Source: Eledone cirrhosa
Lineage: Eukaryota
DNA: 64,000 nucleotides
Reading direction: 5' to 3'
NCBI GenBank assembly: GCA_964016885.1
Contig: OZ024763.1
Location: forward strand, 28,148,001 to 28,212,000
The notes beneath the pieces are model-generated. The model ran no database searches, had not been told where the DNA came from, and saw only the letters and a list, made by a program, of their open reading frames with translations. Each line of letters starts with the position of its first letter. Positions within the stretch are counted from its first letter, which is position 1. A program made the position numbers and the translations under genes. Positions 7,468-55,074 of the stretch are shown in pieces.

Positions 7468-7542
7468 GCTGTCTGATGAGATCGTGGCACTGGTTAGGCG
7501 GAATCACGTGGTCGCTGTCGTCCTTGAAATATGCATCACAGC
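7468..7542 (+). ncRNA. Type I hammerhead ribozyme motif (family E)
   Basis: GCTGT-CTGATGA-GAT c GTGGCA...TGTCGT c CTT-GAAA-TATGCA-TC-ACAGC. Stem I (GCTGT/ACAGC) is perfect, stem III is a short palindrome and stem II is weak. Confidence 0.7.
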
Positions 7543-7631
7543 CTTATCAATATAGGACTTTAACATCTACAAATATATTGCATTGTCTCTCTCTCTCTCC
7601 CCCTCTCTCATATATATATATATATATATAT

Positions 7632-8040
7632 ATATTAATTCAAAATATTAACAAAATAGATATTCTTGTGATCAATTATATTTTATTATACATATTTCAG
7701 AGGTACCGAATTAAGTTCAACAGTACGTCCTCATCAGATAAAATAAAATGATACATGACATACCCTGACATGGTAGATGGTTAAAATGTAATCATCTTAA
7801 CCATCTACCATCTCAGGGTATGTCATGTATCATTTTATTTTATCTGATGAGGACGTACTGTTGAACTTAATTCAGTACCTCTGAAATATGTATAATAAAA
7901 TATAATTGATCACAAGAATATCTATTTTGTTAATATTTTGAATTAATATTAATAATTCTGGAAAACATTTTTCTTGTAGAGTGCTTCCAATCTATTGTAA
8001 AACTCATTCATTGAATCTTGTTTAACTCTTAAAAAAAAAA
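7632..8040 (+). mobile_element. Family C fold-back element in (TA)n carrying two opposed hammerheads
   Basis: About 150-bp near-perfect inverted arms at 7632-7784 and 7797-7949, then a 90-bp tail ending in A10. Hammerhead at 7837-7901: ATTTTAT-CTGATGA-GGA c GTACTG..CAGTAC c TCT-GAAA-TATGTA-TA-ATAAAAT. Confidence 0.9.
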
Positions 8041-8060
8041 TATATATATATAGTAATAAT

Positions 8061-8155
8061 AAATTTTTAAGAGTTAAACAAGATTCAATTTAGTCCAGAA
8101 ATACCCGTCGAAACGGCTTGAGCTCTGCCGTTGGGGGTCTTAAAAATTTCCCTAT
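8061..8155. mobile_element. Chimeric family C / family A insertion
   Basis: 8064-8089 is the reverse complement of the family C tail end (8011-8036). It is joined at AAT to a family A arm at 8087-8155, between TA tracts. Confidence 0.7.
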
Positions 8156-8384
8156 ATATATATATATATAAAGTGTGTATGTGTGTGTTAATAGTTGAAG
8201 TGATTCTGCCTAAAAGCTTTTGCTTCAGATTCAACATTGTGTCTTAAAAGAAGCCACAAATCAATCATGTACAACTCCGGTAAATACGAAAGCTTCCAAG
8301 TTGCCGTCTAACTTCCTATATTTCACTTAACGATATCTGAAGAACGACAGGTAACGATCTCTGAAGGACGACAGGTAACGTTGT

Positions 8385-9100
8385 CCTCGCTAGGATTTGA
8401 ACTCAGAACGTCGAAAGACGTAACTCAATGCCACAAAGTATGTTGACCGACGCTCTACCAATTGTGCCAATCCATCGTCCTGACTATAATAACTGTTTCT
8501 ACGTTAAGCACAAGGCCAGCAATTACCCAGTACATTACTGGTACTTTATTTTATCGACCCCCGTAAGGATGAAAGGCAAAGTTAACCTCGGCGGGATTTG
8601 AATTCAGAATGGCAAGGGCCGTAACTCTATGCGCCAAAGCATGGCATCCGACACTCTACCAATACTGCCAATCCAGGTCCTGACTATAATAACGATGTCT
8701 ACTCTAGACACAAGGATAGCAATTTGGGGAGAGGGGAAAGTCGATTAAATCGACCCCAGTGCGTTACTGGTACTTTATTTTTCCATCCCGTAAAGATGAA
8801 AGGCAAAGCTAACCACGGCAGGGTTTGAGCACAGAACGTAAGGGGCCGTGACTCAATGCCACAAAGCCTGTTGTACGACGTTCTACCATAATAATAATAA
8901 TATTGGTTTCTACTTTTGGCACAAGGCCAGCAATTATCCAAGTACATTACTGGTACTTTATTTTATCGACCCTTTAAGGATGAAAGGCAAAGTTAACTTC
9001 GACGGGATTTGAGCTCAGAACGTAAAGGGCCAAGACTCGATGCCATAAAGCATGAATTCCGACGCTCCACCGCTTATTGCCAATCCATCCACCGACTGAC
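8385..9100 (-). mobile_element. Head-to-tail array of four S1 SINE copies
   Basis: Four GATTTGAACTCAGAACG-like B-box segments, three with the CTGGTACTTTATTTT..AAGGATGAAAGGCAAAG core, separated by GACTATAATAAC-like linkers. Confidence 0.85.
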
Positions 9101-51184: not shown

Positions 51185-53244
51185 TATATACATATATATA
51201 TATATATATATATAGCCTGGATTAAATAATATATATATATACACTTAGGATTAAGTAATATTTAAATATATATATCTATATATATATATATAAATATGCA
51301 AATATATATATACATACATATATATATATACACGCACAGTGGAAAGTATTGGGCATATTCCCAACTAGATTTTGAAGCCATAATAGAGAGGTAGAGAGAG
51401 AGAGAGAGATACTGAAGTCGAGCGTTCAATGTCTGGTCTGTATTCGTGGAATGCGTTCGCTATGACGTCATAGTTTTTCTAGTTTTCCTTTCTAATTCTA
51501 TTATTATTATTATTATTATTATTATTATTATTATATTTCTTCTTTTTCTTCCCGAAACTTTTATGGGATTCACAGTGTTTTTCTTTATGCCATCATCTTC
51601 ATCATCATCTTTATACATGTATAATAAACTCGTTTGTGCACTTGTGTGAAAATGTGTCTGTGTGTACGTGTGTGTGTGTATAGATGCGCATGCGTGCACA
51701 CAATGCAAACGTTTACTCAATGCAGGATAATGCAGGGCTTTCAAAACAAACATATTGCGCGGGCGCACAATATCAATGCTTTGTAGGAACGCGTTACATA
51801 CATACATACATGCATACATGCATACATACATACATGCCTACATACATACATACGTATATACATACATACATACATGCCTACATACATACATGCCTACATA
51901 CATACATACATGCCTACATATATACATACATACATGCATTCATATATTTATATGTAGATGCAATATACATACACCCATGTTATATATATATATATATATA
52001 TATATATATATATATATATATATATATATATATGTGTGTGTGTGTGTGTGCATGGGTATATATTGTCTTTTATGTTCCTCATTTCGTAATATAACTGAAC
52101 TTTTGTCTGGGTGTGTACAATGCGTACAAAGCACACACACATAAGTTATGTAAGATATATAAGGTATATTATATATATATATACATACCTATATATATAT
52201 ATATATATATATATATATATATATATATATATATATATATATATAAGGGTTGTTTTTTATATATACATACATTCATATAAGGTGTGTTTTGTATGTATGT
52301 ATGTATGTATGTATGTATGTATGTATGTATATATATATTTATGTATAAGGTATCTTATGTCAGGCATTATATATGTGCAAAGGAAAATAGGATAGAATAG
52401 AATAGAAATGAGACGTAACGTAACGTAATGTAAAGAAAGAAAGAACACAACAGGAAACAAAGAAAAAAGCCCCAAGAATTGCTGACTGCTGCCACGCTTC
52501 TTCGTTCCATCGTTCTTACGTTCCATCGTTCCTACATTCGGTCTGAGAATCATCGACCAAACAACATTCCTGACGTTTCTGCGACTCTCTCTCTCTTCTC
52601 TTATATCTATCTGTCTCTTTCTATCTCTGTCAGTCTCTTTCTATCTCTCTCTGTCTCTCTCTCTCTCACTCTCTCTGTCTCTTTCTGTCTCTCTCTCTCA
52701 CTCTCTCTGCCTCTTTATGTCTCACTATCTCTGTCTCTTTCTGTCTCTCCCTCTCTCTCTCTCTCTCTCTCTCTCTCTCACCCTCTCTGTCTCTTTCTCT
52801 ATCTAGCATCTCTTATCTCTTTCTCTCTCTCAATCCTTCCCTTTTCTTTCTCCGTCATCTTTTCTCTCTCACTCTCACTCAATCCTTCCTCCCCCTCTCT
52901 CCCTTAATCACCCCCCCTCTCTCTCTCAATCCATCAGCTCTCTCCCTGTCTCTATCTATCACCCCTCTTTCTCCCTCATGTTATTCTCTCTCAATCCTTT
53001 CCCTCCCTCTCGATCTTTGCCCCCTCCCCCAATCCTTCACCTCTCCCCCACTTCCCCCTCTATATATCTCTCTTTCTCATCTCTGCCTCTATATGTTTCT
53101 CTCTCTCTCTCTCACTTCCCCCTCTATATATCCCTGTCTTTCTCCATCCCTCCCTCTATATTCTCTCTGTCTCCCCCCTCTCCTTATCTACTCTACTCTG
53201 ACGAGTGTGTCCATCGTTTTTCGCTTGATATAGCAGGAAGAGGG

Positions 53245-53280
53245 TCTTAACGTTTCGGACGCTAATCCTTCATCAGAAGA
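53245..53280 (-). ncRNA. Minimal type I hammerhead motif
   Basis: TCTT-CTGATGA-A GGA ttagcg TCC-GAAA-CG-TT-AAGA, with palindromic AACGTT at stem III. Confidence 0.7.
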
Positions 53281-53939
53281 AAGAATGAGAAATACGATAG
53301 ATTGAAGAGTTGGGTGGGGTGGAATTGGAAAAACTTCTCTTTAGGTAAAAATAACAGGTCCATCCATGTTGACATCTCTTATATATATATATTTGTTTGA
53401 CCCGAATTACTTGGTCGTTTCTATGGCTGTGCGGATAATGGTTTAACCATCGTCTCAGTGTGTTTGGCCTTTTAACTTATGTTGTAGCTCTAGTTCACTA
53501 GCTTCTATGAAGCGCTTGCCACACATCTCGGAAGTTGTTTTTCGCTAATTTCCAATAGCCGAAATACGATTCTCGCCAATTTATATTTATATATATTAAA
53601 GGCATGTATTGAGTTAGAAACTCAACATAGTCTCATTACGATTTGAACACATATATGTATATGTCTGTGTTCGTTTTTCTTTTTTGTTTAGTTATATATA
53701 TATATATACATATATATATATTGTGTGTGTTTATTAAATTTGGCTAAGTAAGGCGAGTTGACATACTCTTGCGAGTGAGCAGGGGAACCTCTATGGTATC
53801 AAGACTCACTACGTCGGTATTGAATACACTTTTCTCTCCTCCATCAACTACATTCGGATATATATATATATATATATATATATATATATATATATATATA
53901 TATATATATATATATATATATATAATAGTAATAATAATA

Positions 53940-54320
53940 AATTTGAAGACTAAAATCCAAAGAGGGCTCGATAAGGATAAATATATATCAAATATATAAG
54001 AATTGTAGAGAAAATATTTATTAAAATAACAGATTACAGTTTAAGCAAAGAATCGTTGCTTTCACCCTTAACGGGATCTTCTGAAACTAAAAAAGTCAAT
54101 CTGTGAACGCAGAAGTAAATATTTCAAAAAACGTTGCAACCGAAGGAAGACAGGAAGACGATAATTTGGTTCGTGGAAACGTTCCCTATATTTAGTTCCT
54201 ATATTTAGTTTCAGAAGATCCCGTTTAGGGTGAAAGCAGCGATTCTTTGCTTAAACTTTAATCTGTTAGTTTAATAAATATTTGCTCTATGGTTTTGTAT
54301 ATTTTTATATATTTATATAA
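53940..54320 (-). mobile_element. Fold-back element in (TA)n with CAGAAGA-core hammerheads in both arms
   Basis: Arms at about 53977-54091 and 54203-54318. The + arm at 54207-54257 reads AGTTT-CAGAAGA-T CCC gttta GGG T-GAAA-GCAG cgattct TTGC-TT-AAACT, then AATAAA. Confidence 0.8.
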
Positions 54321-54903
54321 ATATATATATATATATATATACTGTATATATATATATATATATATATATATATATATATATACTGTATATATGTATGTAT
54401 ATATATATATATATATATATATACTGTATATATGTATATGTATATATGTATGTATATATATATATATATATATATACTGTATATATGTATATATATATAT
54501 ATGTATATATATATATATATCATTGTAAATCATATTTCTCTTTGTTGAGAGTTAAAAGTAAACCACTTGAAACGATCACTAGATGGCGTTGTTTTTTAAG
54601 AGGCTGAAGTTGACAGTCTTAAATTGCTGTCGCTATTTCTCACGGGACTTTGGTGGTAATTGTTCACACCTATCCACACATACACACACAAACACATATA
54701 CAGGCATACACACACACACAACACAGACTTTCTCTCCCTCTCTCTCCTTCTCAAAAATATACACTCACACTCAGTGAAACACACACAACTATGTGTAGTA
54801 ACTATCTTTATATATCTATATATCTATCTATATATCTGAGCGTATGTGTATATATACATGTATATGTACGTATATATATATATATATATATATATATATA
54901 TAT

Positions 54904-55074
54904 AGTGATGAAACATAAGTCAATTGCATGAACTCATAATCCTTTATTTACTGCTATATATATTTCGATGATAGCCATTGAATGGCTATGACCTCATCAG
55001 GCAGTTAGTCAGTTCTTAGATATGCCAGCTCTGTGTTTATAGTGTTGATGGTATCAGAGCCTCAAGGTGATCTC
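54904..55074 (-). mobile_element. Family F hammerhead element in (TA)n, second copy
   Basis: Reverse complement of 51022-51184 with few differences; the hammerhead is at 54950-55005. Confidence 0.9.

What the first reader, a model, noticed from the sequence alone, without database searches (positions are those of the whole stretch)
7468..55005. C-C mismatch at stem II position 4 is conserved across hammerhead families with different stem sequences
Five distinct stem II sequences have three closing positions, then C opposite C, then a longer helix: GAT c..c CTT (7480), GGA c GTACTG..CAGTAC c TCT (7851, 44597), AAG c ACACCA..TGGTGT c CTT (22283), GGT c ATAGCCAT..ATGGCTAT c ACC (51094 and the 54904 copy) and TAT c ACCGG..CCGGT c ATT (window start). 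Family A's surviving 3' strand (TAGC c GTC GAAA) has C at the same place. An invariant mismatch amid otherwise changed pairs suggests a tertiary contact, protein-binding site or dimer interface. I do not know this as a defined hammerhead subtype.
Basis: partly seen in the sequence, partly recalled or inferred. Interest (0 to 1): 0.8.

Follow-up and report, generated by a model that had tools for sequence, protein, structure and literature searches.

The report
Conserved C mismatch in transposon hammerheads
Tens of thousands of Penelope-like (Hydra) retrotransposon copies in this animal genome carry hammerhead-ribozyme sequences that keep a C unpaired opposite C or U at one fixed spot of stem II while the neighbouring base pairs change, likely a selected folding or docking feature of the ribozyme that has not been tested in the lab.

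Summary
Seven complete hammerheads and one cut by the window edge have C opposite C at stem II position 4 (10.4/11.4); 0 of 60 shuffles gave one. Genome-wide, 51,552 of 62,185 matches of one class have C·C and only 360 have a C-G pair. These are type I hammerheads with a palindromic stem III at the 3' end of Hydra-clade Penelope-like retrotransposons (intact ORFs with RWK-like, DKT, CxCx5C, CxxC and CxH motifs lie upstream elsewhere in the genome). C10.4 is kept in 11 of 11 flank-defined mismatch lineages, across RTs only 43-53% identical, while neighbouring pairs covary. But C·C is not invariant: a young, intact family (22,943 matches) has C·U, and other Hydra lineages pair this position. The families share ancestry; a single origin is not rejected. 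Family A has no 5' half, so that claim is untestable. The predicted dimer interface is stem III, and no conserved partner base was found in stem I. Most likely a C·Y non-canonical pair that shapes how a lengthened stem II packs against stem I; protein recognition and slowed cleavage are rivals. Not found in the papers searched; one key paper was unavailable.

The parts
1..43 (-). Type I hammerhead cut by the window edge: core 39-33, stem II 32-2, C10.4 = 29, C11.4 = 5; stem III ATGATCAT lies in the neighbouring stretch
   Evidence: L093
7468..7542 (+). Type I hammerhead, decayed copy: stem I 7468-7472/7538-7542, core 7473-7479, stem II 7480-7525 with C7483·C7522, stem III 7529-7536, predicted cut after 7537
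7627..7954 (.). Head-to-head inverted pair of 5'-truncated element 3' ends (arms 7627-7788 and 7793-7954, 97% complementary) next to (TA)n
7679..7745 (-).
7836..7902 (+). Type I hammerhead: core 7844-7850, stem II 7851-7882 with C7854·C7879, stem III 7886-7893, predicted cut after 7894
22195..22460 (+). 5'-truncated Hydra-element 3' end between (TA)n runs, 92% identical over 252 nt to the 3' end of the ORF-bearing copy L033
22268..22332 (+). Type I hammerhead: core 22276-22282, stem II 22283-22312 with C22286·C22309, stem III 22316-22323, predicted cut after 22324
44582..44650 (+). Type I hammerhead, decayed copy: core 44590-44596, C44600·C44625, broken pair 5, extra A after GAAA
51082..51139 (+). 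Type I hammerhead: core 51087-51093, stem II 51094-51120 with C51097·C51117, stem III 51124-51133; related (83-86% over about 60 nt) to the 3' end of ORF-bearing L169/L177
54951..55005 (-). Type I hammerhead of the same family: core 55000-54994, C54990·C54970
5658..5700 (+). One 'family A' copy: resembles a hammerhead 3' half only, no 5' half found; not evidence for the motif

Best explanation
These are type I hammerhead motifs at the 3' ends of Hydra-clade Penelope-like retrotransposons, predicted to cleave as dimers, in which a C kept opposite C or U at stem II position 4 likely forms a non-canonical pair that lets a lengthened stem II bend and pack against stem I. Shown: the core, three helices, palindromic stem III, the link to Hydra ORFs for three lineages, and the conservation of C10.4·Y11.4 amid covarying neighbours. 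From established knowledge: such ribozymes dimerise through stem III, and stem I meets stem II at about this height, where canonical hammerheads end a 4-bp stem and begin loop 2. Inferred: these lineages replaced loop 2 by a long helix and kept a pyrimidine notch at the old boundary as a hinge or docking site; copies with it were favoured in the transposing masters, while the genomic copies themselves are mostly truncated and decaying. Cleavage itself was not tested.
For: C·C in 51,552 of 62,185 matches (reversed-pattern controls 5 and 580), C-G in 360. Of 35 long-stem clusters from 143 copies (position 4 not used in the filter): 21 C·C, 5 other Y·Y, 2 other mismatches, 7 paired; among the 27 C-mismatch or Y·Y clusters positions 2, 3, 5, 6 are paired in 26, 25, 24, 24 with several pair types each. 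11 flank-defined lineages all have C10.4 (8 C·C, 2 C·U, 1 C·A). 10.5 toggles G/A (12 CG, 13 CA, 1 TG among 26 clusters): the CpG-type change is accepted at 10.5 but not at C10.4. Position is fixed to the core while stem II is 25-116 nt, which points to RNA structure, not a DNA motif or codon. Nearest-neighbour folding treats nine of ten mismatches alike (mean proximal pairing 0.31-0.42, G·G 0.64, pairs 0.70-0.80; 22 representatives), so mere weakening does not explain the choice of C·Y. RTs of C·C lineages are 43-53% identical (L031 vs L158, L143, L169). C10.4 is also common when paired: 15 of 25 published Hydra families have C10.4-G11.4 (File S2 of PMC8557442, counted by eye). An internal loop of stem II serves as a docking site in the CChMVd (-) hammerhead (PMC2632901 passages).
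Against: No conserved partner base on stem I (best: U1.7 in 16 of 25) and stem I runs from 4 to over 10 bp, so no specific contact can be named. The canonical contact needs a 3' A in loop 2; here 11.4 and 11.5 are pyrimidines. Several Hydra lineages of the same genome transposed with a paired position 4 or other irregularities (L034, L152, L163, L164, L147, L155), as does the one outside element with a hammerhead (L342). The lineages are related: an AU test does not reject one clade for the C·Y carriers (p 0.065), so the number of independent events may be one. 30 of the loci were retrieved with a C·C-forcing pattern, which inflates copy-level and cluster-level counts. No 3D model or cleavage data.
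Confidence: 0.4

Rival explanations
1. The C·Y notch is a recognition handle for the element's own RT-endonuclease protein, which would bind the 3' RNA and assist folding or cleavage.
For: A Poseidon PLE hammerhead cleaves only with its protein (PMC11167929 passages). Base-specific conservation (C10.4, purine 10.5) with no RNA partner. The state follows RT clades: one 98%-supported clade holds only C·C and C·U carriers among its labelled rows, C·U nested inside.
Against: Proteins of carriers are only 43-53% identical and fall in two groups separated by non-carriers in the best tree; no protein feature was matched to the motif.
Confidence: 0.25
2. The mismatch is an attenuator: with weak A-U, G·U or U·U pairs at the base of stem II it keeps cleavage slow so that uncut RNA survives as template.
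For: Predicted pairing of 10.2-10.3 falls from 0.80 (C-G) to 0.36 (C·C), mean of 22; G10.1-C11.1 is present in only 8 of 27 clusters; uncut RNA is the dominant insertion substrate for a Poseidon element; PLE hammerheads are slow in vitro.
Against: Any mismatch would weaken the stem about equally, yet no purine-purine state was found at position 4 in the 35 long-stem clusters.
Confidence: 0.2
3. The two Cs are inherited from one ancestor and persist by chance or hitch-hiking, with no function of their own.
For: One clade is not rejected; copy counts reflect a few masters; C11.4 did change to U in a successful family.
Against: Neighbouring pairs changed repeatedly and flanks are barely alignable among 11 lineages while C10.4 never changed in an amplified lineage, although it often sits in a CpG.
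Confidence: 0.1
4. The C·C sites of two molecules form the dimer interface.
For: The ribozymes are predicted to dimerise (self-cofold more stable than two monomers for 7 of 7 window copies).
Against: Stem III is the palindrome (21 of 25) and is the intermolecular helix in the cofold of 22276, 44590, 51087 and 55000; coaxial stacking places the two stems II at opposite ends (inference).
Confidence: 0.05

Closest known systems
Hydra-clade Penelope-like elements and their hammerheads (Craig et al. 2021, PMC8557442)
   Same: Short single ORF with RWK-like, DKT, CxCx5C, CxxC and CxH motifs, (TA)n targets, inverted 5'-truncated copies, 3' type I hammerhead with palindromic stem III; frequent mismatch at 10.1/11.1 and C at 10.4.
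   Different: None of the 25 Hydra families in File S2 has a mismatch at position 4; their stems II are 3-8 bp with short loops and stem III starts A-C, whereas here stem II is 25-116 nt, stem III mostly starts A-U, and copies number in the tens of thousands.
Minimal PLE hammerheads (Cervera and De la Pena 2014, PMC4209133)
   Same: Type I, pLTR-borne, dimer-prone, long helix II, no loop-loop contact.
   Different: Consensus has an extra unpaired base before a conserved G10.1-C11.1 pair; absent here. None of 56 representatives in Fig. S3 shows C·C (read as text; C. sinensis 2 has U·U and S. purpuratus 1 C·A at the 4th pair after the extra base).
Canonical type I hammerheads (Schistosoma SMalpha, retrozymes) and CChMVd (-) hammerhead
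   Same: Same core; CChMVd (-) uses an internal loop of stem II for a tertiary contact (PMC2632901).
   Different: They use a U of loop 1 pairing with a 3' A of loop 2; neither a conserved U-bearing stem I loop nor that A is present here.

Membership tests
Hammerhead ribozyme, type I | Core CUGANGA / GAAA / UH joined by three helices, stem I open | tested here: met
   core exact in all named copies; stem I at least 4 bp (a search filter); H17 is A, U or C
Hammerhead ribozyme, type I | Site-specific self-cleavage | not testable with these tools
   needs an in vitro assay or raw RNA reads
Hammerhead ribozyme, Rfam families | Score at or above an Rfam hammerhead model's threshold | tested here: not met
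   0 hits at gathering score in the window; no hammerhead family listed at E up to 5 in 7400-8300 and 50850-51250
Canonical type I hammerhead with loop-loop contact | 4-bp stem II with loop 2 ending in A, and a U-bearing internal loop of stem I | tested here: not met
Minimal PLE hammerhead (Cervera 2014) | Palindromic short stem III | tested here: met
   21 of 25 representatives fully self-complementary
Minimal PLE hammerhead (Cervera 2014) | Unpaired base after A9, then G10.1-C11.1 | tested here: not met
   no extra base; G-C at position 1 in 8 of 27 clusters
Hydra-clade PLE | DKT motif, RWK motif | tested here: met
   DKT in L033, L034, L333; RWK in L034, variant RWT/RWI in L333, L335, L336 (definition)
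Hydra-clade PLE | C-terminal GIY-YIG-type EN with CxCx5C linker, CxxC and CxH motifs | tested here: met
   read by eye from the alignment. Pfam gave no family for three fragments
Hydra-clade PLE | (TA)n insertion, pLTR direct repeats and inverted 5'-truncated copies | tested here: met
   (L335, L336 direct repeats; L031-L033, L333 inverted)
Hydra-clade PLE | Placement in a tree with the published Hydra, Neptune, Poseidon and Nematis RTs | not tested
   reference proteins were cut in the supplement text; trees hold this genome's copies only

The most novel reading that the evidence does not exclude
A structurally distinct hammerhead subclass, present in over 70,000 copies in one animal genome and missed by Rfam, in which a C·Y non-canonical pair in an extended stem II replaces the loop-loop contact or serves as the handle by which the Hydra retrotransposon protein switches on its own ribozyme; natural C·C, C·U and paired lineages give a ready-made test of what PLE hammerheads do.
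Probability: 0.4. Interest if true: 0.72.

Novelty: new variant of a known kind. Interest (0 to 1): 0.5.

Why it matters
The role of hammerheads in Penelope-like elements is unresolved (PMC8557442; PMC11167929), and they are described as lacking tertiary contacts (PMC6155905). A base-specific, non-paired position held across RT lineages of about 45-55% identity is a concrete handle for mutational and structural tests, and shows that descriptor and Rfam searches overlook a very large ribozyme class. It does not change the class of element or the catalytic core.

Tried and rejected
Rfam: no hammerhead hit. Pfam on three ORF fragments: none. Metagenomes: 10 Hydra-like loci, a hammerhead in 1 of 10 (L342), without C·C. 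Sequencing runs: no RNA holder listed. Contigs of coded organisms B and C cover the 22276 family with variants at 10.2, 10.6 and the loop and none listed at either C; organisms D and F barely covered it; too weak to count as a test. Family A 5' half: GACCCY+core 259 matches vs 207 control; an earlier pattern with an extra N was mis-specified (52 vs 39) and its 12 loci were not examined. Alternative registers of stem II (A9 pairing with 11.1, or a slip by one) fit single families only (by eye). Codon or DNA-motif constraint rejected because spacing between the Cs varies freely. The GGAC hammerhead in L146 first looked like that ORF's pLTR; homology with L147 showed a different, non-C·C hammerhead there, so ORFs for the 7844, 7473 and window-start families remain unlinked. 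The careful tree did not finish; quick trees are reported. Earlier scan findings: none. Lunse et al. 2017, Martick and Scott 2006 and Scott et al. 2013 were not held.
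Full report
Observation. Seven complete motifs pass a structural filter against 0 in each of 60 shuffles. Details differ in three copies. Family A has no 5' half in any of 49 rows or in genome searches, so it is not evidence. At least eight other hammerhead-like motifs in the window lack the mismatch.

Genome-wide counts. The genome is 3.0 Gb, microsatellite-rich and animal-like; a cephalopod is my inference from that and from the published octopus Hydra element, not a tool result. 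CTGATGA-N22-48-GAAATAT has 62,185 matches (control 580); 51,552 have C at both sites (control 5) and 360 have C-G, spread over many families in the 100 listed. A second class with stem III ATGNNCAT has 31,506 matches, of which 22,943 have C·U. So the conserved state is C10.4 opposite a pyrimidine.

What carries them. Upstream of the hammerhead, longer copies hold an RT-endonuclease ORF (L031-L033, L034) with the DKT, RWK-like, CxCx5C, CxxC and CxH motifs that define Hydra-clade PLEs (PMC8557442 section 11). They insert in (TA)n and carry inverted truncated copies. The 22276 copy is 92% identical to the 3' end of L033, and the 51087 type is related to L169/L177. The C·U family has open frames of 775-821 aa with direct or inverted terminal repeats (L333, L335, L336), so C·U is compatible with recent transposition. 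An RT motif has 7,886 matches; I fetched 40 regions around picks from the first 100.

Family-level test. From 143 distinct copies in about 0.9 Mb of fetched sequence (position 4 not used as filter; 30 loci came from a C·C-forcing search and 30 more from a second one), 35 clusters have a long stem II: 21 C·C, 5 other Y·Y, 2 other mismatches, 7 paired. All 19 whose stem III begins A-U have Y·Y. Among the 27 C-mismatch or Y·Y clusters, neighbours are paired with several pair types and position 5 is purine-pyrimidine in all 24 paired cases. Clustering 26 of these on flanks alone leaves 11 lineages, all with C10.4. RT trees place C·C and C·U carriers in one clade (SH-aLRT 98-99) and a second C·C group apart from it, with non-carriers between; the AU test does not reject joining them (p 0.065). 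Some labels rest on adjacency of an inverted copy or on close protein identity (L116, L165, L171, L176). RT identity between carriers is 43-53%.

Mechanism. Stem III is self-complementary in 21 of 25 representatives and self-cofolding gives a textbook two-molecule hammerhead for 51087, in line with dimer cleavage described for PLE ribozymes (PMC4209133). That places the dimer interface in stems III and I, not at the C·C. Folding all 16 letter pairs at position 4 in 22 natural copies shows that a mismatch halves pairing of the proximal stem, but C·C is no different from eight other mismatches; the choice of C·Y therefore needs a geometric or recognition explanation. No stem I base is conserved beyond a purine/pyrimidine pattern at pairs 1 and 3, and the U-A contact of canonical hammerheads (PMC2632901) is not available. 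I commit to a hinge or docking pair where stem I passes a lengthened stem II (0.40), ahead of a handle for the element's protein (0.25; precedent in PMC11167929), an attenuator (0.20), inertia (0.10) and a C·C dimer interface (0.05). All are inference; cleavage is untested.

Against what is known. Seen: PMC4209133 main text parts 1-2 of 4 and supplement parts 1-2 of 3 (figures as garbled text); PMC8557442 passages, section 11 and supplement parts 2-3 with File S2; passages of PMC7229834, PMC6765202, PMC11167929, PMC13725137, PMC2632901, PMC6155905 and bioRxiv 10.64898/2026.07.22.740005 (its supplements are closed). None of 25 Hydra families or 56 PLE representatives shows C·C at this site. Searches gave no paper describing it (listings only for papers not named above). 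Lunse et al. 2017, the main survey of PLE hammerhead variants, was not held and may bear on novelty. Hammerhead numbering is recalled convention.

Verdict. A real, selected feature and a new variant of a known kind: Hydra-PLE type I hammerheads with a C10.4·Y11.4 mismatch. Interest 0.5.

Noticed in passing
window 5658, 8102, 15452, 22102-22140, 31124-31180, 33773, 59799-59870 and many loci: 'Family A': a very abundant short (TA)n-inserted repeat whose copies nearly all begin at the same 5' boundary and that looks like a hammerhead 3' half with a stable stem III and GUC triplet, but no 5' half was found.
   Followed up: partly
L034, L143, L152, L158, L167, L180: Hydra hammerheads with very long stem II (85-116 nt), beyond usual descriptor limits; many have a mismatch at 10.1/11.1 followed by an unbroken helix.
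   Followed up: partly
genome-wide: Over 93,000 matches to two hammerhead patterns alone, none detected by Rfam in the window; Hydra PLEs are a major repeat here although described from few families.
   Followed up: partly
L145, L149, L161, L182: A Hydra lineage with a single-base bulge after 4-5 pairs of stem II instead of the C·Y mismatch, possibly a functional analogue.
   Followed up: no
window +4137, +41195, -41184, -60062: A family of hammerhead-like motifs with short stem II and a longer hairpin stem III; host element not identified.
   Followed up: no
window -53276, -50938, +48134: Minimal PLE-type hammerheads with short stem II, the first two with an extra base before G10.1.
   Followed up: no
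L337: A 344-aa frame of another GIY-YIG retroelement type inserted between two C·U hammerhead copies.
   Followed up: no
window 24579-25091: Seven 73-nt tandem units at 98% identity, similar to a repeat fragment seen in other loci.
   Followed up: no
window 29270-29469: 200-base N gap.
   Followed up: no
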